Shown here piece after piece: positions 1,556 to 62,242 of a stretch of 64,000 nucleotides of DNA. Where the stretch lies: the NCBI GenBank assembly GCA_001787755.1, contig MFYJ01000001.1:946-64945 (forward strand), in the 5' to 3' direction. Position 1 is the stretch's first letter. Each line of letters starts with the position of its first letter. Below the pieces are notes generated by a model, which ran no database searches, was not told the DNA's origin, and saw only the letters and a list, made by a program, of their open reading frames with translations. The stretch is from Candidatus Peribacteria bacterium RIFOXYB1_FULL_54_35 (GTDB lineage Bacteria; Patescibacteriota; Gracilibacteria; Peribacterales; Peribacteraceae). Both the position numbers and the translations under genes were made by a program.

Positions 1556-1696
1556 GCCCCACTTCGCTTTGCTGCGCAAAGCTCCGCGGGGCACACTTCG
1601 CACTTTCGTAACTGGAGATGGCGCGCCACACAACTTCGCCTGCGGCTACGCGGTGTACCACGCGAAGCTCTTCGTATAGCGAAGAGCGAAGTGTGG
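1556..1696. repeat. cluster of three REP-like palindromes (CGDAG-hairpin-CGAAG core)
   Basis: 1556-1593 gccccacttcgctttgctgcgcaaagctccgcggggca; ~1629-1656 cttcgcctgcggctacg; 1657-1696 accacgcgaagctcttcgtatagcgaagagcgaagtgtgg. Confidence 0.75.
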
Positions 1697-2792: not shown

Positions 2793-4010
2793 CTATTTAT
2801 CCCACCGTATCGCCTCCATGGGACTTAAGCTCGCAGCTTTCTTCGCAGGGACAATGCCGAAGAGGAGACCTGTCCCGAGCGCCATGAGCACTGCTGCAAG
2901 TAAAGCTGGGAAAGAGAGAACAAAGGGAACATACCCGATATACTTACTCGCTGCTGCAGCAAGGATCATTCCAAGTGTCATCCCCCCAATGATGCCGATA
3001 CTCCCGCCAACAAGCGTGAGCGTTACAGCCTCTATGAGGAACTGGAGCAGAATGTCGTGGCCACGTGCACCCACAGCCTTGCGCAACCCGATCTCCCTCG
3101 TCCGCTCCGCTACGGAGACAAGCATGATATTCATAATGCCGATGCCGCCGACGAGAAGAGAAACCCCGGCAATGAGCGCAATGAACACCGTGAGCCCGAG
3201 CGTGACCTGACCGACAATCTTCGTCGCTTGCTCAGCGGAACGGGCACGGAAATCATCTTTATCGTAGTCGTTCTCAGGATTGTCTATGCCATGGCGCTGG
3301 CGCAGAAGCAACGTGACGTCTGCAAGTGCAAGTTCGTCATCCTCTACCGCCTGCATCGTCATGTAGCTCAGCTCCTTCTGTCCTGTTGCAGAGCGCGCAG
3401 TGGTAAATGGAACAAAGACAAAGGTATCGAGATCCTGCATGAGAGCAGAACCTACACTCTGCATCACACCCACCACAGTATAGGAGCGACTCCCTATCTG
3501 CACGCGTTCACCGAGCGGACTTCTTTGGCCAAAGAGATCCTCCGCTGCCTCATACCCAAGCACTGTCACAGATCTCGCCGCTTTTTCATCGGCTTCGGAA
3601 AGGAGTCTCCCCTCCCCCAATTTGAGCCCATAGTTCGCAAAAAAGTTGGATGTCGTCCCGAATATATTTGGCGATAACTCTTCCGTTCCATACTGCACTT
3701 TCTCAGTAATAAATATTACCGGCGCAACACTCTTTACAGTGGTGAGCCCGGTTATCGCCTCGTAATCGCCGTAGGTCACGCTATCGAGCGTGCGGCCGAA
3801 TTTCTCGTAGCCTGTTGGATAGAGCTCAATGAGGTTGTTGCTGAACGATTCGACCTGATCGAGAATATAGCGCTCAAAGCTGCGCCCAACGGAGACCATG
3901 AGCACCACGGAACCGACTCCTATGATGATGCCGAGCATCGTGAGGAGTGATCGCATTCTGTGAGCGACAATTGCCCTGTGAGCCGTTTGGATGGTGTCGC
4001 GAAGGAGCAT
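2793..4010 (-). CDS. MacB-family ABC transporter permease
   Basis: RSLLTMLGIIIGV and GGIGIMNIMLVSVAERTREIGLRKAVGA motifs. Confidence 0.95.
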   Translation of the reverse strand: MLLRDTIQTAHRAIVAHRMRSLLTMLGIIIGVGSVVLMVSVGRSFERYILDQVESFSNNLIELYPTGYEKFGRTLDSVTYGDYEAITGLTTVKSVAPVIFITEKVQYGTEELSPNIFGTTSNFFANYGLKLGEGRLLSEADEKAARSVTVLGYEAAEDLFGQRSPLGERVQIGSRSYTVVGVMQSVGSALMQDLDTFVFVPFTTARSATGQKELSYMTMQAVEDDELALADVTLLLRQRHGIDNPENDYDKDDFRARSAEQATKIVGQVTLGLTVFIALIAGVSLLVGGIGIMNIMLVSVAERTREIGLRKAVGARGHDILLQFLIEAVTLTLVGGSIGIIGGMTLGMILAAAASKYIGYVPFVLSFPALLAAVLMALGTGLLFGIVPAKKAASLSPMEAIRWDK

Positions 4011-5239
4011 TATTCGTACCGGAGTGCGTTCATGGGAGAGAGCTTGGAAGCCTGTCTTGCCGGGTAGATGCCAAACACAAGCCCTGTGAGAATCGCCATG
4101 GCGAGAGCAAGCCCAATGGCAGGAACCGAAAGCGCAAAGTCATAACTCTCGAGGTATTTGTCCACAATCAATGCTGCCAGACCGGCGAGGCCGACACCGA
4201 AGACAACACCAGCGATGCCGGCAAACAGGGTGAGGAGAATCGCTTCGAAGAGGAACTGGAGAAGAATATCCCTCCCTCGTGCTCCCACGGCCTTCCGGAG
4301 GCCTATCTCACGGGTACGCTCGGTCACCGCAACCAGCATGATGTTCATGATGCCGATGCCGCCGACGACCAGAGAGATGCCCGCAATAGTGGTAATGAAC
4401 AGTGTGAGACCCAATGACACCGCACCAAGAATATCATTCGCTTGCTGCGACGTGCGGACGATAAAGTCGTCTTCGTCCGTATCTCCTTCCGGGTTCACAA
4501 TGCCATGCCTCTGGCGAAGCAGGGACTCCACATCTGCTTGCGCGAGATCAAAATCTCCCACTGCCTGGAGTGTGATGACATTCACATGCTTCTGACCCGT
4601 TACGGCACGTCCCGTGGTGAGCGGAATGAAAACAAACTCATCCGCATTCTGGAAGAACTGCGTCCCAACCGGTTCCAGTACCCCCACCACGGTATACTGC
4701 AGATCTCCCAGCCTTACCTGCTTGCCGACCGGATCTTCCAGCCCAAAGAGATCATCTGCGATATCGGAACCGAGTACCACAACGTGCCGCGCGCGCATGA
4801 TGTCCCGTTCTTCCAGAACACGGCCGACTGCAACCGGCATCTCACGGTTCTGAAAATACGGCGGCGTCGTTGCAATGACACGGGGTTGCGTCTTCTCTCT
4901 GCCATAGACAGCGGTGGGGATATCCACAAAAATCGCCGGCGCAACACTCGTGATGGTTGTGAGCCGTTCCAACGCCTCGACATCATCAAATGTAAGGCTG
5001 TCGAACCCCGCGGCGAGCGTGCTTTCCACTCCTTCTTTCTGCCCAGGGAACACCACCATGCTCTGCGCACCTATGGAGCTGATCTGACTGAGTATGAGCA
5101 CCTCCATACTTGCACCGACCGCTGTCATGAGTACCACGGAACTCACACCGATGATGACCCCAAGCATCGTGAGCATAGAACGTTTCCTGTTGACGCCGAT
5201 CGCTCTACGGGCCGTCGCGAATGTGTCTGTGATGAACAT
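4010..5239 (-). CDS. MacB-family ABC transporter permease (paralog)
   Basis: Same MacB/FtsX motifs (GGIGIMNIMLVAVTERTREIGLRKAVGA). Confidence 0.95.
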   Translation of the reverse strand: MFITDTFATARRAIGVNRKRSMLTMLGVIIGVSSVVLMTAVGASMEVLILSQISSIGAQSMVVFPGQKEGVESTLAAGFDSLTFDDVEALERLTTITSVAPAIFVDIPTAVYGREKTQPRVIATTPPYFQNREMPVAVGRVLEERDIMRARHVVVLGSDIADDLFGLEDPVGKQVRLGDLQYTVVGVLEPVGTQFFQNADEFVFIPLTTGRAVTGQKHVNVITLQAVGDFDLAQADVESLLRQRHGIVNPEGDTDEDDFIVRTSQQANDILGAVSLGLTLFITTIAGISLVVGGIGIMNIMLVAVTERTREIGLRKAVGARGRDILLQFLFEAILLTLFAGIAGVVFGVGLAGLAALIVDKYLESYDFALSVPAIGLALAMAILTGLVFGIYPARQASKLSPMNALRYE

Positions 5240-8746: not shown

Positions 8747-8816
8747 AGCACGGCATATGGTAGCCGAGAGAGAAGAGAACCTCTAGTCAGATGGAAGACC
8801 TTCTGAATCAGGGAAG

Positions 8817-8883
8817 TTCATTCGCTCGTTTACTCGTTGGCTCGTTCCAACGAGGAACGAGTGCACGAGTAAACGAGCAAACG
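8817..8883. repeat. 8-nt periodic intergenic palindrome
   Basis: gctcgttt actcgttg gctcgttc ... gaacgagt gcacgagt aaacgagc. Confidence 0.75.
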
Positions 8884-8942
8884 TCCGTACCTTGCGAAAA
8901 ACTGGATTTTTCATTCCAACCGTACTGCGATATACTACGCCT

Positions 8943-11205: not shown

Positions 11206-11330
11206 TAGAGAACCTCTGGAAAATACGAAAGCATGTCATGGTGAGCACTGTCGAACCACGACATGCATCAAATCGTCGCAGTTCGTCAGAGCTCACTGTG
11301 ACAATTTGGGTGTTTTCCAGAGGTTCCCTA
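11206..11330. mobile_element. MITE-like element with 21-bp terminal inverted repeats, TA ends and internal palindromes
   Basis: tagagaacctctggaaaatac (11206-11226) versus gtgttttccagaggttcccta (11310-11330), 19/21 complementary. Confidence 0.65.
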
Positions 11331-12513: not shown

Positions 12514-15510
12514 TCACTCTGAAAGTGGTGTAAAATCGAGCGCAGTAATCTTCCCCCACACTGTCTTCACAAGCTCCCTCAGTTCCTGCACTTCTGCATC
12601 CGTGATCTCCAGACTTATCTCCCTTCTCGCCTGGTCTTCCTTCCCAATATAATCGAGTGTAAAGAGTGTGGCTTCGTGCATGAACTTCGGGTCTGCATCG
12701 CAGAGCATTTTGTAGAACACAAGCTGGCGGAATATATTTTTTTTCTTCCGCACAGCTTCCTCTGTACGGCATGTGTTGCCTGTTTTATAGTCCAACACCC
12801 TGCAGATTCTTCCGTTTGGCTCGAAGAGATCTATACGGTCGACCTTCCCCTTAATGGGAACATCATCCACCACCGCATGAAGTGTTCTCTCGGCAGAGAG
12901 AATCATTGGAATACCGGAAGAAGTCTGCTCTCCGTATCTCCTGACTATTTCGCTCCCCTCCCGCAAATACTGCTCTCTCTCCTCTCTGGTTAAAATCTCC
13001 CTGTCCAAGTACTTCTGGAACGCAGAAACGAGTTCCTCTACAGAGAACTTCCTCCCTTCCTGCCAGGCAAGATTCCTATCTTCTAAGGCACCATGCACTG
13101 CAGTACCGAAAGCCATTTGAGGCTTTTTTTCGCTAGGACGCTGGAGCAGCTGCTCCCATAGAAACTGGTGGGGACCATTATCTTCATCGAGAAAAGCATT
13201 GAGGGCAGTGACCGAGAGTTCGTAGTCTTTGAGTCGCTCATCCAAAAATGCGCGGAAGGCAGTATCTATGGGCAACGGTGGTTTGCGGAGGGTCTCTATG
13301 GGGGTTGGAACATCTTTACCCTGTAGAACAGTTTCCTCTAGCTTCTCTCCGGCCTCCGCCACAAATGTACTAACCTGTGCATCCTGCATCTTCTCACCGG
13401 ACCGATACGTCTCTGGGAAAGTGAGAATGAGCTGCTTACGAGCACGCGTCATCGCTACGAAGAAGAGCCTGCGTTCATCTTCCTGTCCAGCCCGCCTTTC
13501 CACCTCTTTGTCGATATTGAAAATAAGGTGGTCTGGGAGGGCGAGTGTTGTCCTATTGCCGCTATCTCCCCAGTTCTTAAACCAGATATTGGCCATGACA
13601 ACCACATCGAACTCCAGCCCCTTGGCTCCGTGCGCGGTCATGAGCTGTACGCCATCCTGCACGAGGTGCGGAAGGTCGTACTCCAGTTTAAGCTTTGGTT
13701 CGCTGAGGTACTGGTCTATATCTGAGAGGAGATTGCGTAGTGTGAGTGTTTTTACTTCGTAACATCTGCTTTTCACGTACTCATAAAACACATGCAGCCC
13801 CGCAATACCTCTGGGATCAGCCTCTGTGTCTTCAATATCCGGAAGGAGTTTTGCACCCGTAAGAGCTTCTGCCACAACTGCAGTAAGAGTTTTATTCGGC
13901 ATTTCGCTATTCATTTTTGTGATGAATTCATGCGCACTCCGTATGGCTTCTGAAGAAGGTTCCTCTGTGAGAAGGTATTCGTGGAGTGAGAGCCTGTCGC
14001 CTTCTCTATTCCTGCTACGGAAGTTCATCCACAGCCTGCCTAAATCTGCAGGAGAGCAGCCGAAGCAAGGGAGCGCCAGGGCGGCAGAGAGCGCACTGGA
14101 TACCGCAGGCTCTGCGACAGCACGGAGTAGACTCACGGCTTCAAGTACCTGAGGATGCCGCACAAGATCCTGCTTGGCAGTGACCACGGCAGGAATACCC
14201 GCGGAAGTGAGAACATCGGAAATATCCAGTACCTCTTCATTCCTTCTGCATATCAGCGCCATTTCCTTCCAGGGAACTCCCTGCTCTTTCGCTTTACGAA
14301 GAAATTGGACAATGCCTGCGTACTCCGTACTTGTATCTGGGAAGCGTACAAACCGCGGCTTCACGCCCTTCTCCTTCTTTGTGGAAACAAGATACTTTTC
14401 TACGCCTCCAATTTTTCCCGCCAAGCGCTCCTCATTGACTGCTATCACCTCGGAAGCGGCATCGAGTATGGGCTGGAATGAACGGTAGTTTTTCGTAAGT
14501 GTAATGACTGCAGTACTGGGAAAACGCTCGAGAAATGAGAACATATTGCCGATGTTTGCCCCTTGGAACCGGAAAATAGCCTGATCGTCATCTCCAACAA
14601 CAAAGATATTCGGCTGCAAATCCGAATGCACGAACGTAGTGAGAAGATCCAGCACCCTGTTCTGCGCGCCGTTTAAGTCCTGGAATTCATCCACAAGTAT
14701 GTACTGGTACCGCTCCTGCAGAGAACTCAGCAGCCAGTCGTTCTCCTTGAGCGCCTGTAGCGTAACCAGAATCATGTCATCGTAGTCGTAACGATGGCTC
14801 TCCTGCAGTACTTTCCCATACTCCTCGTAGACCGCAATAAACTCCTTCAACTGCTCAACCCTTCGCAGATCCTTCTTATACGCATCAGATGAAAGATCGC
14901 GCTCGCGCCCGGCGGGAGTTTTTTTAATTTCCTGTGCGTAGGGCACTACATGTTTCTTCAGCTCCGCAGGTGAAATTCCTTCTTTCTTCATTTTTGTTAT
15001 CCGATCCAACACGTCTGCCGCCCTATCTTGCTCTGCAACCGGATTGTAGAGGGTAGAAGTAGAGCCAAGTGCCTTTATCGCGTTGCGCACAATCTGCAGT
15101 TGCTCGATAGCACTTACTTGTTCCTGCACCCGAAAATCCACAAAAATGTGCGGGTACTGCTGAATGAGATCGTTACAAAAGCTGTGAATGGTGCTCACCG
15201 TAATACCGTATGCGTCGGGCCCTATGATGCTTCGCAGTCGCTCCCGCATCTCCTTTGTGCCCGAAGTTGTGTAGGTAAGGCAGAGAATGTTCCCAGGGCG
15301 CATTTGCGTTTTTTTGAGAATGTATGCCACTCTCATACCCAGTACCTCTGTCTTCCCCGTTCCAGGTCCGGCAACAACCATCACCGGACCCTCAATCGTC
15401 TCCACAGCAAGTTTCTGAGCGTCGTTGAGCTCTGCGAAACGGCTCTCAAACACACCCTCATTTTGCTTCCGCTTCTTCGCCGTCGACCTGGTCTTGAGAG
15501 ACTGCTTCAC
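12514..15510 (-). CDS. UvrD/PcrA-family helicase with C-terminal PD-(D/E)XK nuclease (AddA/AdnA-like)
   Basis: AGPGTGKT, VDEFQD, VGDDDQAIFRFQGA, TAHGAKGLEF, C-terminal GKVDRID...LDYKTG...QL. Confidence 0.93.
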   Translation of the reverse strand: MKQSLKTRSTAKKRKQNEGVFESRFAELNDAQKLAVETIEGPVMVVAGPGTGKTEVLGMRVAYILKKTQMRPGNILCLTYTTSGTKEMRERLRSIIGPDAYGITVSTIHSFCNDLIQQYPHIFVDFRVQEQVSAIEQLQIVRNAIKALGSTSTLYNPVAEQDRAADVLDRITKMKKEGISPAELKKHVVPYAQEIKKTPAGRERDLSSDAYKKDLRRVEQLKEFIAVYEEYGKVLQESHRYDYDDMILVTLQALKENDWLLSSLQERYQYILVDEFQDLNGAQNRVLDLLTTFVHSDLQPNIFVVGDDDQAIFRFQGANIGNMFSFLERFPSTAVITLTKNYRSFQPILDAASEVIAVNEERLAGKIGGVEKYLVSTKKEKGVKPRFVRFPDTSTEYAGIVQFLRKAKEQGVPWKEMALICRRNEEVLDISDVLTSAGIPAVVTAKQDLVRHPQVLEAVSLLRAVAEPAVSSALSAALALPCFGCSPADLGRLWMNFRSRNREGDRLSLHEYLLTEEPSSEAIRSAHEFITKMNSEMPNKTLTAVVAEALTGAKLLPDIEDTEADPRGIAGLHVFYEYVKSRCYEVKTLTLRNLLSDIDQYLSEPKLKLEYDLPHLVQDGVQLMTAHGAKGLEFDVVVMANIWFKNWGDSGNRTTLALPDHLIFNIDKEVERRAGQEDERRLFFVAMTRARKQLILTFPETYRSGEKMQDAQVSTFVAEAGEKLEETVLQGKDVPTPIETLRKPPLPIDTAFRAFLDERLKDYELSVTALNAFLDEDNGPHQFLWEQLLQRPSEKKPQMAFGTAVHGALEDRNLAWQEGRKFSVEELVSAFQKYLDREILTREEREQYLREGSEIVRRYGEQTSSGIPMILSAERTLHAVVDDVPIKGKVDRIDLFEPNGRICRVLDYKTGNTCRTEEAVRKKKNIFRQLVFYKMLCDADPKFMHEATLFTLDYIGKEDQARREISLEITDAEVQELRELVKTVWGKITALDFTPLSE

Positions 15511-15525
15511 AGCCGCATGCTATCA

Positions 15526-15604
15526 CCAGCCTTCGCCCCGCGCACGCGGGGCTACCTGTCCGCCGTAGTCCGCTGCAAGTGGACGGAGGTGGATGGCCGG
15601 CGAG
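15526..15604. repeat. two nested REP-like palindromes
   Basis: Inner 15555-15593 cctgtccgccgtagtccgctgcaagtggacggaggtgga interrupts outer ccagccttcgccccgcgcacgcggggcta|tggccggcgag. Confidence 0.75.
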
Positions 15605-20912: not shown

Positions 20913-22403
20913 TTACACAACATCTTGCAGGTGATAGATCATCCAGCGGGGAAGGTGGTTTTTGAGCATTCCGTTGCGTGCGCGCCCCCGCCCGATACAC
21001 CAGCCACGGTAGCGGATGAGCACATGCCCGAGGAGCGATGCGTCACATGAAATATCCTGCCCCTGCAGCAAGTGCTGCAACTGTTCTTCTTGAATGACGC
21101 AGACATTCTCCGTTGCCTCACCTCCGCGCAGCACAGCCATCTCATGGTCAATGTACACCGGAATATCCCTGAGCCTCTTTCCGAATGGAAGCCCAAGGCA
21201 GTAGTCCGCAACCGGAAGCTTCAACCTCGCTACCTCCTCTGTCGTTATAGCCAAATGGTCCCCTCTGTCGAAAAGCTGCTCTCCACCACGGATGATGTCT
21301 GTTCCGTACCGCGTCCTGAGAAACTGGGCAATCTCCTGCTGCTGCCCCCGAGGGAGCGGCTTCTCGCGGAAATGCTTGAGTTCCATTTTTTCTGCCTCAC
21401 GTGTGGGTGCTGTTTTCTCCAGCACCGCACAGAAGAACCCCTCGGTGTCGTACGTCTGCGGCCAGATGCGCAAGAAAGGATAGGCGGTTTGCCCTGCAGA
21501 TTGGAGGGAATGCTGCACTGCAATCGAGTCTCGAACGGCGGCATCGAATGCCACTTTCCCTTGATTTACAGCCAATTCTCTTGGATCGACAACCTTAAGT
21601 TGATCACTAAATTTGTTCAATATGCTCAGCACCACTTCCTCGTTCTCCTCGGGAGTGAGCGTGCACGTGGAATACACAATGCGACCGCCAATGGCTGCCG
21701 CATGCACTGCAGACTCTAAAAGCTCCCGCTGGAGCTTGGCTGCCTTGCGAATGCCGAGTTCCGAGCAGTATTTGAGCGCGTTCGAATCTTTCCTGCAGGT
21801 ACCCTGCGCAGTACAGGGTGCATCGATGAGTACGCGGTCGAAGCGGCCCGTCATGTACCTGGCAAACCACTGCCCCATCCTCTTGGTCAGAATGACATTC
21901 ATCACCCCGCTGCGCTGGAGCGCGGACTTCAGGGTTTGGATACGGGCATCCTGTACATCATTGGCAACGATCACTCCCCTGCCCACCGAAGCTCCATGAG
22001 GAGCGGAGGCGGGCCTCCCCTGCATGGCAGCTGCAATCTGTGAAGTTTTGCTCCCCGGTGCAGCGGCCATGTCGAGAATGATTTCTCCCGGTTCCGGCTG
22101 CAGGAGCCCGACAGGCAACATGCTGCTCGCTTCCTGGAAGTAGAAATGCCCGAGAAGATGCAGAAGATCTTTCCCAAGGGGAACAGACCGGTCATCACGG
22201 TCAACGAAGAACCCTTCAGTACACCATGGGACAGGCTGCAGTTTCCACCCCTTCTCCTCTGCCCACCGCTTCAACTCCTCTGCGGAGGAAAGGATGGTAT
22301 TGCTGCGCACGCACCTGCGCAGCGGCTTGCTGCTGTACTCTCTCAGTGTGGAGAGATCAGTGAAGCCGGCATAGCGATCGAAGGGATGGTCAGACACTGG
22401 CAA
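20913..22403 (-). CDS. rsmF: RsmF/NOL1/NOP2 rRNA m5C methyltransferase
   Basis: QEASSM, DMAAAPGSKT, DRVLIDAPC, VYSTCT, EGFF, C-terminal PUA-like region. Confidence 0.88.
   Translation of the reverse strand: MPVSDHPFDRYAGFTDLSTLREYSSKPLRRCVRSNTILSSAEELKRWAEEKGWKLQPVPWCTEGFFVDRDDRSVPLGKDLLHLLGHFYFQEASSMLPVGLLQPEPGEIILDMAAAPGSKTSQIAAAMQGRPASAPHGASVGRGVIVANDVQDARIQTLKSALQRSGVMNVILTKRMGQWFARYMTGRFDRVLIDAPCTAQGTCRKDSNALKYCSELGIRKAAKLQRELLESAVHAAAIGGRIVYSTCTLTPEENEEVVLSILNKFSDQLKVVDPRELAVNQGKVAFDAAVRDSIAVQHSLQSAGQTAYPFLRIWPQTYDTEGFFCAVLEKTAPTREAEKMELKHFREKPLPRGQQQEIAQFLRTRYGTDIIRGGEQLFDRGDHLAITTEEVARLKLPVADYCLGLPFGKRLRDIPVYIDHEMAVLRGGEATENVCVIQEEQLQHLLQGQDISCDASLLGHVLIRYRGWCIGRGRARNGMLKNHLPRWMIYHLQDVV
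21978..22013. repeat. 36-bp REP-like palindrome inserted in frame in rsmF
   Basis: cctgcccaccgaagctccatgaggagcggaggcggg followed by cct; encodes PASAPHGASVGR. Confidence 0.8.
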
Positions 22404-30908: not shown

Positions 30909-30960
30909 CCTTCGACAGGCTCCAGCCTCCGCGCTTCGTGCTTCGGCCGACAGGCAGGGT
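30908..30960. repeat. nested REP-like palindromes
   Basis: cccttcgacaggct|ccagcctccgcgcttcgtgcttcggccgacagg|cagggt. Confidence 0.75.
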
Positions 30961-48099: not shown

Positions 48100-48177
48100 A
48101 GAATACTAGAGTAATAGAATACTAGGACAGCAGTGCGGCTGTCCTATTACTCTAGTATTCTCATTCCTATTACTCTT
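48100..48177. repeat. 8-nt periodic palindrome between convergent genes (possible terminator)
   Basis: gaatacta gagtaata gaatacta ggacagc...gctgtcc tattactc tagtattc. Confidence 0.75.
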
Positions 48178-55580: not shown

Positions 55581-55946
55581 GTGGCAGCCCACTCAATCCT
55601 CATCGCGGAGGACGACCCTCTCCTGCGGGATCTCTACAAGAAGAAATTTTCCCTTGCGGGCTACCGCATTCGGACTGCTGAGGATGGGGAAAAAACTATC
55701 GCCGCCATAGAAGAAGAATCCCCCGATTTGCTCGTGCTCGACATCAATATGCCAGTCATCGACGGATTCGGCGTTCTGGAGAAATATCCGTTGGAAGACC
55801 GGCCTTTCGAAGTCATATTTCTCACTAATTTCGGCGATGAGAAAAACAGAGAACGAGGGGAGAAGCTGGGAGTGCGACACTTCCTCGTAAAAAAGGACAT
55901 GACGATCAAAGCACTCGTCTCCCTGGTAGAAAAGATCCTGCGGTAG
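55581..55946 (+). CDS. single-domain response regulator
   Basis: ILIAEDD, LLVLDINMP..DG, LTN, K; GTG start at 55581. Confidence 0.9.
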   Translation: MAAHSILIAEDDPLLRDLYKKKFSLAGYRIRTAEDGEKTIAAIEEESPDLLVLDINMPVIDGFGVLEKYPLEDRPFEVIFLTNFGDEKNRERGEKLGVRHFLVKKDMTIKALVSLVEKILR

Positions 55947-56081: not shown

Positions 56082-56468
56082 TTGGAAAAAGGATACATCC
56101 TTGTCGCTGAGGACGACCCTGTACTGCGGGAAGTCTACGTGAAGAAGTTCTCCATTGCGGGATACAAAATCCACACAGCGAATAACGGCGAAGAAACACT
56201 CACCGCCATAGAGCAGGAAACGCCAGATCTCCTCCTCTTGGACATCAACATGCCTGTCATGGATGGATTTTCCGTACTGGAGAAATTCCCCAAGGAAGAG
56301 CGAACGTTCCCCATCATTCTGCTCACAAACTTCGGCGACGACAAGAACAGAGCCCGCGGAGAGGAGCTGGGGGCAGACGATTACTTCATCAAGAGCCAAA
56401 TGACCATGCGCAAGCTCCTCGAAATGGTGGATGATCTCATGAAAGCGAGACGGTACTGGAATAAGTGA
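56082..56468 (+). CDS. single-domain response regulator (tandem paralog)
   Basis: ILVAEDD, LLLLDINMP..DG, LTN, K. Confidence 0.9.
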   Translation: MEKGYILVAEDDPVLREVYVKKFSIAGYKIHTANNGEETLTAIEQETPDLLLLDINMPVMDGFSVLEKFPKEERTFPIILLTNFGDDKNRARGEELGADDYFIKSQMTMRKLLEMVDDLMKARRYWNK

Positions 56469-59164: not shown

Positions 59165-59242
59165 AGAGAGAGTAATAGGGAATAGAGTACTAGGATAATG
59201 AGGCCCTATGTGTGGGGCCTATTACTCAATTCCCTATTATTC
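59165..59242. repeat. 8-nt periodic palindrome between convergent genes
   Basis: gagtaatag...ggccc-tatgtgt-ggggcc...tattactc; shares units with 48100-48177. Confidence 0.7.
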
Positions 59243-60478
59243 TTACCTCAGAGCAACTGTCTCTATCGGTTTCGCATGCACAAGATAGCGCTGCGCGATG
59301 GAATCCGGCGGCCAGCAGGTGTAGAGAATGAGCTCCTCCCCTTCACCATCGTCATTGAAAGGATCTGTATCTTTCGCATCGATTGTTTCCTCGTAGGTTA
59401 CTTCGTAGGTGTGCAGCTTCCCCTCGTACGTCACGTAAATCCTGTCCCCGGCTTTGAGCTGATTCACCTTGCGGAATATCTTGGTGTACTTCGAGACATC
59501 CCACGGATACCCACTGGAGTGACCATAGATCATGATCTTGCCACCCGCACCGGGATAGCTAAAGAGGTGCCCCACGCCGTCTTTGAGCGCAGCGAGAACA
59601 CCCTGAGAAGAAAGCGGATCTATGGGATGTGTGATGGTGAGGTCCGTAACCCCGAGACTCGGCATAGTAATGGCAAAATACTTCTCTGACGCATACGGAA
59701 GCGTGCCCGCCTGTACGGTCGGTTGGGGCTGATTGATGACCTGAATAGTCTGCGGCTGCGGGAGGCTGATTGAGCGCGAGGAACTCGCCCCCTGGCTCTG
59801 GGTTCCCTGGGACACAGTTCTTCCATCGTTGAAAACAAGAACACCCGCCTCGCGAACATACATCATACGGTAGACCATCTCGAAGAACTGGCCGCGCGTA
59901 ATCGGCTGACCAAGCCGCAGGGACTGCTGCTCCTGCAACACCGCATTGCGCAGAATTGCAGCGTTGATCGAGGACGTGTACCACTGCCCGGGAAAGTTCT
60001 GAATGGCAGCAGAAAGTCTCGCGAATTCTGTTTCTCCCGCTTCCCCGAATGACCGCGAGAGAAGAACCACCGCTTCCTCCACCGTGAGCAACTGCCCCGG
60101 CCGCAGGGTTCCCTCCGGATACCCTTTCACCACTTCTGCTTCGAACGCAGCCTCCACAAACGGGGCAAACCACTGACTCTGCTGTACATCGGAAAAGAGA
60201 GGTAACGGCGGCATGTTCTCCTGGTACCACAGAACACGCTGCGCATACTTCTCCTGGGTGATCATGAGTACTTTGATCGCCTCTGCCCTGTTAAGAAACT
60301 TCTGGGGTCTCGCGAGTCCATCACTGTACCCCCGGAGTATCCCCTTCCCCGAGAGGTACACAAATGCGTCGCTGTAGAGCGTCTGGTCAGTATCGGGGAA
60401 ACCAGCAGCGAATGCCCGTGTTCCGAAGCCCACGAGTAACACTGCCGCCAGCAGAAGGAGTAGCCTTTTATACTGCAT
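59243..60478 (-). CDS. SLH-domain sortase
   Basis: Signal peptide, SLH repeats (GILRGYSDG, VVKGYPEG), sortase motifs IYGHSS, ILYTCWP, QRYLV. Confidence 0.88.
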   Translation of the reverse strand: MQYKRLLLLLAAVLLVGFGTRAFAAGFPDTDQTLYSDAFVYLSGKGILRGYSDGLARPQKFLNRAEAIKVLMITQEKYAQRVLWYQENMPPLPLFSDVQQSQWFAPFVEAAFEAEVVKGYPEGTLRPGQLLTVEEAVVLLSRSFGEAGETEFARLSAAIQNFPGQWYTSSINAAILRNAVLQEQQSLRLGQPITRGQFFEMVYRMMYVREAGVLVFNDGRTVSQGTQSQGASSSRSISLPQPQTIQVINQPQPTVQAGTLPYASEKYFAITMPSLGVTDLTITHPIDPLSSQGVLAALKDGVGHLFSYPGAGGKIMIYGHSSGYPWDVSKYTKIFRKVNQLKAGDRIYVTYEGKLHTYEVTYEETIDAKDTDPFNDDGEGEELILYTCWPPDSIAQRYLVHAKPIETVALR

Positions 60479-60623: not shown

Positions 60624-62171
60624 ATGTTTTGCCCTCTCAAACGGCCTGTTCTCACATACCTGCCCACTCTCACCCTCTGCGGATGCCTCCTCCTCTTCGG
60701 AACGTTCCTGAGCAGTCTCGCACATCCTACGTCCCTCGGAGATGGCATACGGCACCTCACTCTCGCCCGTCTCCTGCAGGAAGGGAACTCGTTCGGAGGC
60801 TGGGGCGATGTTCTGTACTCAGGATACTTCAGCACACGGTCCTCTGATCCGTGGTTCCTCACGCACGTGCTGCTCATGCCTCTCGGCACTCTGGATATCG
60901 CGATTGCGGAGGACATGCTGATCCTGCTGCTCATTGGTGCGGTAGGCATCACCTTCCTTCTCTTCCTCAGAACCCTCCGCCTCTCCCCCGCTTCCCAGAG
61001 CATTCTTATCGCACTCCTCCTCCTCGGACACGTGCAATTTACGTTCCGCCTCCTCGTCGGCCGTCCGCTCTTCCTGATGGTCGCCCTCACCACGCTCACG
61101 CTGCTCACCGTCCTCCATAAACAACCATTGCTTCTCCTGGTACTCATGACCATAGCAACACTCCTCTCGCACCTCTTCGTGTTCCCGTTATTCATCTGCC
61201 TTCTGGGATCTCTCTGGCTCCTCTCACTCTCAAGAAAACGCACAGCCATGCTCACATTCCTCAGCGCACTCTCCGGCCTCGTGATTGGTCTTCTCCTCCA
61301 TCCCCAGACAAGCAATTTTGTCCATTATGTTTTCACCATCTTCCTCAGAGTACCTTTCCTCACTGAGCTCGATACGGGCACAGAGATGCATTCGGGTATA
61401 GGGCGCATGGCAGCTGTTCTCACACTCCTCGGTGCCTGCCTCCTCTTCGCATATCATCTGTGGTACACACGCCGCGCCTCCTGGAAGGAAATGCACAGGC
61501 GAGGACTCAGTCTGACAGCCAGCATTGTTCTGGTGATGACACTCGGCATGCTCCTCTGGGTGCGCATGCTCGACTTCCTCTGGCCGCTCCTCCTCATTCT
61601 CCTCGCACAGGTACTGAGCCTGTACCCACCCATTGCCAAAGAAACAGCACATGTTCTCCTGCCCCGATGGGCGCTGCTCAGAAAATACACACTGGGAGTG
61701 CTCCTCCTCGTGCTCACCGTGAACACCGCTAAGACCTTCTATAGTTTCTCCACAGTCAATGCAGAAAACGCGCTCAGCCACTTCACAGATCCGCTGAAGA
61801 ACATTCCAGAGAAATCACGCGTGCTGAATGTGGACTGGGATCTCTTTCCTTCCCTCTTCAGCGCACGACCGGATCTCCTCTATGCGCGCGGAATGGACCC
61901 CTCGTACGACTACCTCTCCGATCCGGATTCCATTCGCTTCTTCGCTGCAGTACGAAATCCATCTGAAGAAACGGACTGGAATGTCTGGCTCACGGAGCTG
62001 ATTCAACACATCCCTTCTGACTACCTTGCTCTCTGGAGAGCGGAAAAACGCAGGAACATGATCGAAACACTCAACCAGAACAAATCCCTCGAGCATGTTG
62101 GCATGAGCGACCGCATTATCGTGTATAAAATCCTTCCTTCCACCGAGCAGTCCGCTCAGGATTCCGTATAA
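60624..62171 (+). CDS. multi-pass membrane protein, possibly GT-C-type glycosyltransferase
   Basis: ~12 TM segments, D..RH in first loop, RP motif, soluble C-terminal domain. Confidence 0.6.
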   Translation: MFCPLKRPVLTYLPTLTLCGCLLLFGTFLSSLAHPTSLGDGIRHLTLARLLQEGNSFGGWGDVLYSGYFSTRSSDPWFLTHVLLMPLGTLDIAIAEDMLILLLIGAVGITFLLFLRTLRLSPASQSILIALLLLGHVQFTFRLLVGRPLFLMVALTTLTLLTVLHKQPLLLLVLMTIATLLSHLFVFPLFICLLGSLWLLSLSRKRTAMLTFLSALSGLVIGLLLHPQTSNFVHYVFTIFLRVPFLTELDTGTEMHSGIGRMAAVLTLLGACLLFAYHLWYTRRASWKEMHRRGLSLTASIVLVMTLGMLLWVRMLDFLWPLLLILLAQVLSLYPPIAKETAHVLLPRWALLRKYTLGVLLLVLTVNTAKTFYSFSTVNAENALSHFTDPLKNIPEKSRVLNVDWDLFPSLFSARPDLLYARGMDPSYDYLSDPDSIRFFAAVRNPSEETDWNVWLTELIQHIPSDYLALWRAEKRRNMIETLNQNKSLEHVGMSDRIIVYKILPSTEQSAQDSV

Positions 62172-62201: not shown

Positions 62202-62242
62202 CCTACCTTCGCCCCGCATCCGCGGGGACTTCGGTGGGCAAG
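62202..62242. repeat. REP-like palindrome
   Basis: cctaccttcgccccgcatccgcggggacttcggtgggcaag; shares cttcggtgggca with the reverse complement of the rsmF insert. Confidence 0.75.

What the first reader, a model, noticed from the sequence alone, without database searches (positions are those of the whole stretch)
21978..22016. Palindromic element translated inside RsmF (12-aa insertion)
Seen: the protein reads KTSQIAAAMQGR-PASAPHGASVGR-GVIVAND, and the extra 36 bp is a full copy of the repeat family with CCT repeated at the junction. Established: RsmF/RsmB proteins have only a short turn here (pattern M-x-x-x-G-x-I-x-A-N-D/E), and Rickettsia palindromic elements are a precedent for repeats inserted in coding frames. 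Inference: the repeat is mobile and adds new peptide loops to housekeeping enzymes.
Basis: partly seen in the sequence, partly recalled or inferred. Interest (0 to 1): 0.7.

Follow-up and report, generated by a model that had tools for sequence, protein, structure and literature searches.

The report
Hairpin repeat inserted inside RsmF gene
A 36-base hairpin-forming repeat that normally sits between genes has landed in frame inside a ribosomal RNA methyltransferase gene of a small groundwater bacterium, adding a floppy 12-residue surface loop; the same kind of event is already known from Rickettsia and other bacteria.

Summary
The RsmF gene (window 20913-22403, minus strand) carries 36 extra bases (21978-22013) that encode PASAPHGASVGR. 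The closest relative (G003), two other congeners and E. coli RsmF all show a clean 12-residue gap there.

The insert belongs to a real hairpin repeat family: about 40 copies in this 1.56 Mb genome, mostly intergenic, several starting at the CCA end of tRNA genes. Near-identical 36-mers lie at unrelated, non-coding places in G003 and in another genus, and this genome is empty at G003's site.

Two metagenome contigs hold a related RsmF with two tandem copies at the same site. On a well-supported tree the copy numbers read (2,(1,0)).

In an AlphaFold model the insert is a low-confidence coil between helix 118-126 and strand 144-148. Of 120 RsmF homologue clusters, 16 carry an insert in this loop, drawn from at least two unrelated palindromic repeat families.

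How the repeat moves is not shown. No Y1 (RAYT-type) transposase was found in this genome, although 19 of 24 family relatives have one.

Verdict: a REP/RPE-like in-frame insertion, a new member of a known kind, here in Peribacteria.

The parts
20913..22403 (-). RsmF-type 16S rRNA m5C methyltransferase gene (496 aa), intact, host of the insert
   Evidence: ORF. Pfam PF17125 + PF01189 + PF13636. Best solved relative is E. coli YebU 2frx: 4.3e-62 by sequence; Foldseek E 1.4e-42, TM 0.80/0.86. The motif IV and VI cysteines (C197, C247) fall in invariant columns of the 24-sequence alignment.
21978..22013 (-). 36-nt hairpin repeat element, coding strand CCCGCC..GGGCAGG, translated as PASAPHGASVGR (residues 131-142)
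   Evidence: Absent from G003, G001 and G002. Same extent shared with the G003 and G017 copies. HMM of 30 other copies gives E 2.6e-4 with these exact ends. Low-pLDDT coil in the model.
22008..22013 (-). outer stem, 5' arm (CCCGCC)
   Evidence: Fold. Covariation of this helix across 50 copies.
21982..21987 (-). outer stem, 3' arm (GGTGGG; one G-T/G-U position)
   Evidence: The pair at alignment columns 4/71 reads AU 16, GU 11, GC 10, CG 4, UA 4.
22000..22004 (-). inner stem, 5' arm (GCTCC), preceded by the unpaired TCC at 22005-22007
   Evidence: The family consensus for the unpaired triplet is TTC.
21991..21995 (-). inner stem, 3' arm (GGAGC), followed by the unpaired TTC at 21988-21990; loop TCAT at 21996-21999
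21978..21981 (-). 3' tail CAGG (family consensus CAAG/CAGG). Together with the preceding GGG it reads GGGCAGG, which equals the sequence of the empty site in relatives.
22014..22020 (-). left junction heptamer GGGGAGG, an imperfect (6 of 7) direct repeat of the element's last 7 nt
   Evidence: The same junction is present in the dimer-bearing contigs L223 and L225.
62202..62242 (+). intergenic family copy, 31 nt after the stop of the ORF at 60624-62171
   Evidence: cmsearch E 9.9e-5, nhmmer 5e-4, context. Also present at the syntenic site in G003 (L065).
30922..30954 (+). weaker family copy between convergent ORFs
   Evidence: cmsearch E 0.018. Context.
15526..15593 (.). two family copies in opposite orientation, just upstream of the 998-aa ORF at 12514-15510 (-)
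   Evidence: cmsearch E 0.0043. nhmmer 0.0013 and 0.0028. Context.
1654..1696 (-). family copy that begins at the CCA end of tRNA-Tyr (1694-1778, -)
   Evidence: nhmmer E 2.3e-5; this copy was in the HMM training set.
1557..1595 (+). family copy near tRNA-Tyr
   Evidence: this copy was in the HMM training set.

Best explanation
The 36 nt at 21978-22013 are one unit of a REP-like hairpin repeat family. The unit has a 6-bp outer stem, a conserved unpaired TTC on each side, a 5-bp inner stem, a short loop and a CARG tail. The family normally lives between genes and at the 3' CCA ends of tRNA genes in this lineage, probably Peribacteria (CPR).

One unit was inserted in frame into RsmF, in the loop between the helix after SAM-binding motif I and strand beta2. 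It is carried there as a tolerated, probably near-neutral, disordered 12-residue surface loop.

Shown:
- the insertion itself and its membership of the family;
- near-identical copies at non-homologous sites in relatives;
- reciprocal filled and empty sites between congeners;
- 0, 1 or 2 copies at this site among close lineages;
- the loop position in a confident model;
- repeated independent insertions of other repeats in the same loop.

Inferred:
- The gene still works. It is intact and its catalytic motifs are conserved.
- The unit integrates beside a sequence resembling its own GGGCARG tail. That would explain both the choice of this site and the head-to-tail dimers.
- The mover is a trans-acting single-strand HUH/Y1 (RAYT-like) transposase that this genome no longer has or that was not assembled. 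I put about 35% on this step. Replication slippage or microhomology-templated copying is the alternative.
For: Insertion. A 36-nt / 12-aa gap appears in G003, G001 and G002 and in 2FRX and 1IXK. None of 27 aligned relatives has the peptide.

Family.
- Covariance model R1 finds 22 hits in G000. It hits 21 of 24 genomes of the same family against 4 of 16 from other families.
- A regex for the architecture gives 40 rows in G000.
- An HMM from 30 other copies hits the insert at E 2.6e-4 with exact ends.
- The 36-nt subfamily is in 38 of 200 family genomes, with 0 reversed-pattern controls.
- Across 50 copies, 97.3% of cells pair and 6 of 11 pairs show double changes. 37 compensatory cells compare with 5.5 +/- 3.9 in shuffles, and 0 of 500 shuffles reach that value.

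Mobility.
- The G003 copy upstream of cysS (35 of 36 identical) sits at a site that is empty in G000.
- The G017 copy (33 of 36) lies next to a tRNA in another genus.
- L223 and L225 carry a tandem dimer in RsmF.
- The tree reads (P0003[2 copies],(P0001[1],P0002[0])) with supports 100/97 and 100/99.
- A head-to-tail dimer also occurs elsewhere, at G137:C34:7030-7101.

Permissive loop.
- AF2 model: mean pLDDT 91.1, pTM 0.92. The insert is a coil with pLDDT about 50, below 50 at residues 132-136.
- 16 of 120 homologue clusters have inserts here.
- G020's insert is one of 30 genomic copies of a different palindrome.

Not an assembly artefact. Contigs from two runs (X1, X17) bridge the insert without differences.

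Target resemblance. Empty RsmF alleles read GGGCAGR at the site. The empty cysS-upstream site in G000 reads GTAAG where the G003 copy ends GCAAG.

Y1 transposases. Pfam PF01797 hits occur in 19 of 24 family genomes, including about 150-aa RAYT-like ORFs with an HxH motif.
Against: - No PF01797 hit in G000. tblastn with 10 relatives' Y1 proteins also finds none; best E 0.068. The assembly is 97.85% complete.
- No R1 element lies within about 1 kb of 10 Y1 genes in relatives, best E 0.56. No REPtron-like link is therefore shown.
- The hairpin of this copy is no more stable than shuffles.
- This genome holds no second close copy of this subfamily.
- The junctions do not give a clean target-site duplication: 6 of 7 here and none visible at the G003 site. 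The exact element ends are ambiguous by up to 7 nt.
- The other presence/absence sites compared between G003 and G000 are messy composite indels.
- The regex used to collect family copies was designed after seeing this element. The alignment used for covariation was fitted to the model. Both lean toward the structure.
- Nothing here tests enzyme activity of the RsmF protein.
Confidence: 0.8

Rival explanations
1. The insert is a family copy, but it spreads without a transposase. A resident hairpin copy would be duplicated by replication slippage, template switching or microhomology-guided repair or gene conversion at sites resembling its GGGCARG tail. The 0/1/2 copy states would then arise by slippage and by homologous recombination between strains.
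For: - No Y1 transposase in G000, and no element next to Y1 genes in relatives.
- The target and the element tail share 7 nt.
- Exact head-to-tail dimers are what slippage produces.
- A different relative has a heptamer tandem repeat in the same loop (L013).
Against: - Slippage explains going from 1 to 2 copies, but not the arrival of a 36-mer at a site with only 7 nt of similarity.
- It does not explain near-identical copies at unrelated loci in two genera.
- Copies are 33-35 of 36 identical, while flanking RsmF DNA is only about 80-85% identical between G000 and L223. This suggests recent copying from a conserved source.
Confidence: 0.3
2. The insert has been taken over for a function. Either the 12-residue loop changes RsmF's contacts with the 30S subunit, or the mRNA hairpin tunes translation or stability of the rsmF message.
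For: - The element is kept with very few changes in two lineages whose flanks differ by about 15%.
- G-U pairs occur at a stem position on the transcribed strand.
- The loop has been hit repeatedly.
Against: - The closest relative lacks the insert, as do 104 of 120 homologue clusters.
- Inserts in this loop are unrelated in sequence and range from 6 to 39 aa.
- The segment is predicted to be disordered.
- Sequence conservation is equally explained by recent copying.
Confidence: 0.1
3. It is an ordinary lineage-specific indel in a variable loop, and the resemblance to repeats is chance.
For: The hairpin energy is not significant. There is no second close copy in this genome.
Against: - 35 of 36 and 33 of 36 matches at unrelated loci in relatives, with 0 reversed-pattern controls in 41 and in 200 genomes.
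- An independent HMM gives E 2.6e-4 with exact ends.
Confidence: 0.03
4. It is an assembly or binning artefact, with a repeat wrongly joined into the gene.
For: Contigs of 2 of the 4 runs laid (X15, X19) end at or next to the insert.
Against: - Contigs of X1 and X17 cross it with no differences.
- Two separate metagenome contigs hold the same junction in a related gene.
- The protein cluster with the insert has 18 member sequences on 25 contigs.
Confidence: 0.02

Closest known systems
REP elements (repetitive extragenic palindromes), including intragenic REPs, as surveyed by Di Nocera et al. 2013 (PMC3733652; passages read)
   Same: - A 20-40 nt imperfect palindrome, tens of copies, mostly intergenic, after ORFs and between convergent ORFs.
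- G-T/G-U positions in stems, and dimers.
- Occasional in-frame copies inside genes, among them RNA-modification and tRNA-related genes in that survey.
- Families without a matching transposase are also described there.
   Different: - No GTAG or CGTC tag at an end of this copy. Many family members carry CTAC (GTAG on the other strand), but inside the hairpin, in the unpaired triplet, and this copy has CTTC there.
- No RAYT in this genome and no element flanking RAYT-like genes of relatives.
- The host is a CPR bacterium.
- Many copies start at the CCA end of tRNA genes.
Rickettsia palindromic elements (RPE). Their discovery as in-frame inserts is recalled from Ogata et al. 2000 and was not read here; they are mentioned in PMC3733652 passages.
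   Same: Palindromic repeats found in frame inside otherwise conserved protein genes of a small genome. They add surface peptide segments without breaking the gene, and they vary between close relatives.
   Different: - As I recall, RPE-1 is about 100-150 bp and encodes 30-50 aa. This unit is 36 nt.
- No sequence relationship was tested.
- A different phylum.
IS200/IS605-family 'peel and paste' elements and RAYTs (Y1 HUH transposases). The mechanism is recalled; the RAYT-REP cleavage is cited in PMC3733652 passages.
   Same: - A strand-asymmetric hairpin with conserved unpaired bases.
- A short conserved motif beside the hairpin that also occurs at the target.
- No clean target duplication.
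- A pattern compatible with precise loss.
- Y1 genes are common in relatives.
   Different: - The unit carries no transposase and is far shorter than an IS.
- No Y1 gene in this genome.
- No biochemical or genomic link between the Y1 genes and this hairpin was found.
Bacterial MITEs such as Correia/NEMIS elements (recalled; review PMC10969869 seen only in a search listing)
   Same: Small non-autonomous repeats that can sit in or next to genes and be transcribed as hairpins.
   Different: MITEs have terminal inverted repeats of a parent IS and a defined target duplication. Here the whole unit is one hairpin of 36 nt, and the flanking repeat is imperfect and may be target similarity.

Membership tests
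RsmF (16S rRNA m5C1407 methyltransferase, RsmB/F-NOL1/NOP2/Sun family) | Domain order: RsmF N-terminal domain, RsmB/F methyltransferase core, C-terminal PUA-like domain | tested here: met
   PF17125 2.6e-12, PF01189 2.4e-42, PF13636 3.7e-9, in that order.
RsmF (16S rRNA m5C1407 methyltransferase, RsmB/F-NOL1/NOP2/Sun family) | SAM motif I and the two catalytic cysteines (motifs IV and VI) | tested here: met
   D111, P116, G117, S118, K119, D194-C197 and S245-T248 are invariant columns in 24 sequences that include the window protein. The naming of the motifs is from general knowledge.
RsmF (16S rRNA m5C1407 methyltransferase, RsmB/F-NOL1/NOP2/Sun family) | Full-length fold like solved RsmF | tested here: met
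   Foldseek top hit 2frx_A: E 1.4e-42, TM 0.80/0.86. T. thermophilus RsmF 3m6v follows.
RsmF (16S rRNA m5C1407 methyltransferase, RsmB/F-NOL1/NOP2/Sun family) | Methylates C1407 of 16S rRNA | not testable with these tools
   Needs an assay.
REP elements (RAYT-associated palindromes) | Short (20-40 nt) imperfect palindrome forming a stem-loop | tested here: met
   36 nt with 11 pairs. Structure is kept with compensatory changes across 50 copies. This copy's own fold energy is not significant (z = -0.89).
REP elements (RAYT-associated palindromes) | Many dispersed, mainly intergenic copies | tested here: met
   22 cmsearch hits and 40 regex rows in G000. 6 of 7 window copies are intergenic.
REP elements (RAYT-associated palindromes) | Conserved GTAG (or CGTC) tetranucleotide at one end | tested here: not met
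   This copy has neither tag at its ends. Many relatives have CTACGG internally; this copy has CTTCGG.
REP elements (RAYT-associated palindromes) | RAYT (Y1 transposase) gene in the genome, typically flanked by REPs | tested here: not met
   0 PF01797 hits in G000 and tblastn negative. 19 of 24 family relatives have hits, but none of the 10 loci examined has the element within about 1 kb.
Rickettsia palindromic elements | In-frame insertion in conserved genes, absent from close relatives | tested here: met
Rickettsia palindromic elements | Sequence or length class of RPE families; Rickettsiales host | not tested
   No RPE sequence was compared. The host is not Rickettsiales: homologues are named Peribacteria or Peregrinibacteria by their sources.
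MITE | Terminal inverted repeats plus a direct target-site duplication | tested here: inconclusive
   The unit is one hairpin. The 7-nt flanking repeat is 6 of 7 here. None is visible at the G003 site.

The most novel reading that the evidence does not exclude
The unit is a site-directed, reversibly inserting hairpin. It integrates next to sequences that resemble its own GGGCARG tail, so a resident copy attracts the next one, and it can leave precisely. This would create a 0/1/2-copy length polymorphism in a loop of a conserved ribosome-modifying enzyme. It may also descend from the CCA-sequestering hairpins that directly follow tRNA and tmRNA genes in many phyla; 31 of 123 exact-motif matches across Proteobacteria, Acidobacteriota, Verrucomicrobiota and Patescibacteria do so. 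That would make it a tRNA-trailer-derived mobile element class in CPR bacteria.
Probability: 0.15. Interest if true: 0.75.

Novelty: new member of a known kind. Interest (0 to 1): 0.45.

Why it matters
It adds a clear CPR (Peribacteria) example to the short list of palindromic repeats that are translated inside conserved enzymes, with unusually complete comparative support. Empty, single and double alleles all occur among close lineages, and there is a donor-like copy elsewhere.

It also shows that one loop of RsmF has been hit again and again: 16 of 120 homologue clusters, by at least two repeat families. That loop is therefore a natural marker for repeat activity and a map of where the enzyme tolerates extra peptide.

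For annotation, odd low-complexity loops in proteins from CPR genomes can be repeat DNA rather than adaptive protein features.

The link between this hairpin family and the CCA ends of tRNA genes across phyla is the part most worth following. I found no paper describing it in the searches run.

Tried and rejected
- Exact or near-exact search for the 39-mer in the window and blastn-short over the whole genome found only the insert itself. I first doubted the 'repeat family' claim for this reason. The doubt was lifted by the pattern search in relatives and by the models.
- General repeat finding over the window and k-mer counts over the genome did not reveal the family. They found other repeats instead (see Noticed in passing).
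- Fold energy of the insert alone is not significant.
- Rfam has no family for the hairpin. It matched only the neighbouring tRNA and tmRNA genes.
- I looked for a REPtron-like link by scanning about 1 kb around 10 Y1 genes of relatives with model R1. Nothing scored below E 0.5.
- Comparison of more G003/G000 presence-absence sites to define element ends gave mostly composite indels. One had a 12-nt duplication of a tRNA 5' end (L067). No consistent junction rule emerged.
- The full metagenome records behind L223 and L225 are not held. The dimer allele is therefore known from only 334 nt of DNA plus the 514-aa protein P0003.
- Contigs of runs X15 and X19 stop at or beside the insert. No contig joining across an empty site was seen, so these data neither show nor exclude a mixed population.
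- The literature searches found no description of this family in CPR, nor of tRNA-end hairpin repeats. The Peribacteria genome paper (PMC4736985, passages read) mentions only tens-of-bp indels in twelve proteins.
Full report
**1. What is at the coordinates**

The minus-strand ORF at 20913-22403 encodes a 496-aa protein. It has the RsmF domain order: PF17125, PF01189, PF13636. Its best solved relative is E. coli YebU/RsmF, 2frx (4.3e-62).

Residues 125-149 read AAMQGR-PASAPHGASVGR-GVIVAND. The phmmer alignments to 2frx and 1ixk open a 12-residue gap at exactly PASAPHGASVGR.

**2. Is it an insertion?**

I searched 41 genomes (this one plus 40 relatives) with the protein; 33 have a match. In an alignment of 28 ORFs, none of the 27 relatives has this peptide. 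22 of the 27 have the short turn. Five (L008, L009, L013, L020, L023) have other, unrelated inserts at the same spot.

G003 is the nearest relative (same genus, 88-90% identity). Its DNA reads ATG CAG GGC AGA GGA GTC where the window has ATG CAG GGG AGG + 36 nt + GGA GTG. G001 and G002 are also empty.

On the coding strand the insert is CCCGCCTCCGCTCCTCATGGAGCTTCGGTGGGCAGG, window 21978-22013. Its last 7 nt, GGGCAGG, equal the empty-site sequence of G001. The 7 nt before it, GGGGAGG, are a 6-of-7 direct repeat of them.

**3. Is it a copy of a repeat family?**

Taken alone the evidence was weak. The 39-mer is unique in the window. blastn-short finds nothing longer than 14 nt elsewhere in the 1.56 Mb genome. 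The hairpin (6-bp stem, 3x3 unpaired, 5-bp stem, 4-nt loop) folds at -11 kcal/mol, no better than 35 of 200 shuffles.

A pattern search in relatives changed the picture. The same 32-nt core occurs once in G003 (1 mismatch) and once in G017, a different genus (3 mismatches), with no match to the reversed pattern in any of 41 genomes. Both copies are at unrelated, apparently non-coding places. One lies upstream of cysS beside another hairpin in G003; the other lies about 40 nt from a tRNA in G017. The three copies share exactly 36 nt.

A covariance model built from them (R1) finds 22 hits in this genome. It hits 21 of 24 genomes of the same family but only 4 of 16 genomes from other families of the class.

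Reading the G000 hits shows a common plan:
- a 6-nt outer arm;
- TTCG(C/T);
- an inner stem and loop of variable length;
- (G/A)CT(T/A)CG;
- the complementary outer arm;
- a CAAG, CAGG or CGAG tail.

A regex for that plan gives 40 rows in the genome, a few of them doubtful.

As a test that does not use the insert itself, I built a profile HMM from 30 other G000 copies. It hits the insert at E = 2.6e-4 in the 64-kb window with ends 21978-22013, second only to a training copy.

Across the family, a degenerate 36-nt pattern matches in 38 of 200 genomes, against 0 for the reversed control.

On 50 copies aligned to the model:
- 97.3% of pair cells are standard pairs;
- 6 of 11 pairs show changes on both sides;
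- 37 compensatory cells compare with 5.5 +/- 3.9 in shuffles, a value reached by 0 of 500 shuffles;
- sliding the partner columns collapses pairing to 22-62%.

That alignment is fitted to the model, which favours the structure. One stem position reads AU 16, GU 11, GC 10, CG 4 and UA 4. The G-T in the window copy is therefore a normal family state, and it hints at a role as RNA.

**4. Does it behave as mobile DNA?**

- The site of the G003 copy upstream of cysS is empty in G000 (C11, about 77,500). There G000 reads ...GTGCC GTAAG CCCGAC... where G003 has ...GTGCC TCTG + element ending GCAAG + CCCGAC. Each of the two congeners thus has the near-identical 36-mer where the other has none.
- A scan of metagenome contigs for the subfamily gave 4 loci. 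One is G003-like, one is G017-like. Two (L223, L225, from different metagenomes) hold an RsmF gene with two head-to-tail units at the very same site, reading ...MQGR PASAPHGASVGR PASAPHGASVGK GVIVAND....
- Flanking DNA identity is 95.0% between G000 and G003 (261 nt), 84.8% between G000 and L223, and 80.1% between G003 and L223.
- Among 120 homologue clusters, P0003 (the dimer allele, 514 aa), P0004 (PTSAPAGATVGR, about 80% identical protein) and P0016 (PTFAPNGAMVGK, about 57-60%) carry family-like units at this site in this frame. P0002 (G003-like) and P0005-P0012 do not.
- An ML tree without the loop columns gives (P0003,(P0001,P0002)) with supports 100/97 and 100/99. P0004 is unresolved within the same clade.

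Copy numbers therefore read (2,(1,0)). Either the unit was gained once and lost exactly in the G003 lineage, or it was gained twice at the same position. The identical odd left junction (GGGGAGG) in G000 and L223 favours one gain followed by a precise loss. This is inference.

The units are 35 of 36 identical between lineages whose flanks differ by about 15%. That argues for recent copying or for constraint on the hairpin.

**5. Where do the other copies sit?**

In the window the other copies are intergenic:
- one is 31 nt after an ORF stop;
- one lies between convergent ORFs;
- an inverted pair lies upstream of a gene;
- two flank tRNA-Tyr, one of them starting in the tRNA's CCA.

Across the genome, several of the 46 tRNA/tmRNA genes are followed at once by such a hairpin whose outer arm begins with the encoded CCA. 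Tyr, Val, Ala, Gly, Phe, Glu and Ser were read by eye.

They come from Alphaproteobacteria, Acidobacteriota, Verrucomicrobiota, Planctomycetota and several Patescibacteria, including Peribacteria and Peregrinibacteria. 31 of the 123 matches are directly preceded by a T-arm-like motif and CCA. Rfam finds tRNA or tmRNA beside 7 of the 8 such loci tested.

**6. Other translated copies**

- A GHMP-kinase-like gene (G000 C7:17922-18869) has a 33-aa, 99-nt insert. It contains one unit in antisense orientation and is absent from all 10 relatives aligned, including G003.
- Two Cys-rich paralogues carry one unit and two tandem units at the same internal position.
- Other copies that fall in long open frames sit at ORF edges and are probably outside the real genes.

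**7. The protein**

An AlphaFold2 model from a 24-sequence alignment is confident: mean pLDDT 91.1, pTM 0.92. It superposes on 2frx with TM 0.80/0.86.

The insert (residues 131-142) is a coil between helix 118-126, which follows motif I, and strand 144-148, which leads to the motif II Asn-Asp. The 131-140 block has mean pLDDT 50, and residues 132-136 are below 50.

In the Rossmann-type methyltransferase fold, this helix-to-strand turn lies at the edge away from the cofactor site. That is general knowledge and was not measured on the model. The catalytic cysteines and the SAM motif are intact.

16 of 120 homologue clusters have inserts of 6-39 aa in this loop. The G020 insert folds at -43.9 kcal/mol and contains one of 30 genomic copies of a different palindrome, CCCCTCTCCC-N3-GGGAGAGGGG. 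Another relative has a heptamer tandem repeat there. The loop is a permissive hot spot. What we see is what selection lets through, helped by the unit being 36 nt long and open in 5 of its 6 frames (my reading of the sequence).

**8. Is it real DNA?**

Contigs assembled from two runs (X1, possibly the source, and X17 from another sample and study) cross the insert with no difference. In two other runs the contigs end at it. The protein cluster with the insert has 18 members on 25 contigs.

**9. How does it move?**

This is not shown. The Y1 transposase family (PF01797) is absent from this 97.85%-complete assembly, and tblastn with 10 relatives' proteins is also negative. The family is present in 28 of 41 genomes searched and in 19 of 24 of the same family, often as about 150-aa ORFs with an HxH motif, as in RAYTs. 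No hairpin unit lies within about 1 kb of 10 such genes.

Several features resemble single-strand HUH systems:
- strand asymmetry, with TTCG on both arms of one strand;
- conserved unpaired bases;
- a tail that matches the target;
- no clean duplication;
- head-to-tail dimers, here and at G137:C34:7030-7101;
- possible precise loss.

Slippage or microhomology-templated copying is the main alternative.

**10. Comparison and novelty**

Palindromic repeats translated inside genes are known. Examples are the Rickettsia palindromic elements and the GTAG/CGTC REPs inside genes of many species, including tRNA-modification genes (PMC3733652, passages read). This case lacks the terminal GTAG/CGTC tag and a resident RAYT, so I do not file it as a classical REP. 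It works like one.

My searches found no report of such elements in CPR or Peribacteria. The Peribacteria genome paper mentions only short indels in twelve proteins (passages). Homologues at 54-71% identity are named Peribacteria or Peregrinibacteria by their sources, and the runs are groundwater and soil metagenomes. The organism's identity is inferred from these.

**Verdict**

This is a new member of a known kind, of moderate interest. The open leads are the insertion mechanism and the link to tRNA ends.

Noticed in passing
G000 genome, e.g. window 1654-1696 after tRNA-Tyr (1694-1778, -); also loci L086-L188 from other phyla: Hairpins of this family start in the encoded CCA of tRNA and tmRNA genes, so the 3' end would be paired in the precursor. 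The same exact core motif follows tRNA or tmRNA genes in Alphaproteobacteria, Verrucomicrobiota, Acidobacteriota and Patescibacteria: 31 of 123 matches.
   Followed up: partly
G000 genome; window copy near 11235 (C1:12180): A second palindromic family of the form ..GTCATGGTTCGAC-N3-GCTCACCATGAC... There are 37 copies of GCTCACCATGAC and 17 of the variant GCTCGGGATGAC, with stems that differ between variants. Related hairpins (CCATTCGACTCG...CTCGCTCATGG) follow tRNA-Leu, Arg, Met and Val.
   Followed up: partly
G000 C7:17922-18869 (outside the window): A GHMP-kinase-like gene has a 99-nt in-frame insert (33 aa) absent from 10 of 10 relatives. Only its last about 38 nt are a family hairpin (antisense); the rest is unique in the genome.
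   Followed up: yes
G000 C7:168926-169000 and C13:72732-72770 (outside the window): Two paralogous Cys-rich proteins (640-aa and 584-aa open frames) carry two units and one unit in frame at the same internal position. The G003 orthologue has a longer composite element there.
   Followed up: partly
RsmF orthologues of relatives: L008, L009, L013, L020, L023; proteins P0082-P0119: Independent inserts of 6-39 aa occur in the same RsmF loop. Several read like translated CCCTCTCCC/GGGAGAGGG-type palindromes (PSP...GEG), and one is a heptamer tandem repeat.
   Followed up: partly
Relatives G001, G003, G005-G020 etc.: There are many small (about 150 aa) Y1/RAYT-like ORFs in family relatives, up to 10 per genome, and Y1 domains inside about 1000-aa ORFs in five genomes. 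This genome has none.
   Followed up: partly
L067 (G003:C49) versus G000 C7:63146-63275: G003 has a 63-nt insertion containing a family hairpin just upstream of a tRNA gene, flanked by a 12-nt duplication of the tRNA's 5' end (GGGTCAGTAGCT).
   Followed up: no
window 8810-8892; 59169-59243; 48146-48176: Intergenic palindromes built from short tandem units (AACGAG-like and AGAGTAATAGG-like). Genome-wide hexamer-type tandem families also occur, such as CTAATGAAGCTA (51 copies) and CTACAAGCTACA (36).
   Followed up: no
window 55596-55870 and 56097-56371; 3897-3998 and 5126-5227: Direct repeats of 275 nt (72% identity) and 102 nt (71%) at 501-nt and 1229-nt spacing, probably neighbouring paralogous genes or domains.
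   Followed up: no
window 21928-22008: In 2 of the 4 runs laid, the assembled contigs end at or next to the insert, while the other two cross it. This could be a palindrome effect in assembly or allele mixture; it is unresolved.
   Followed up: no
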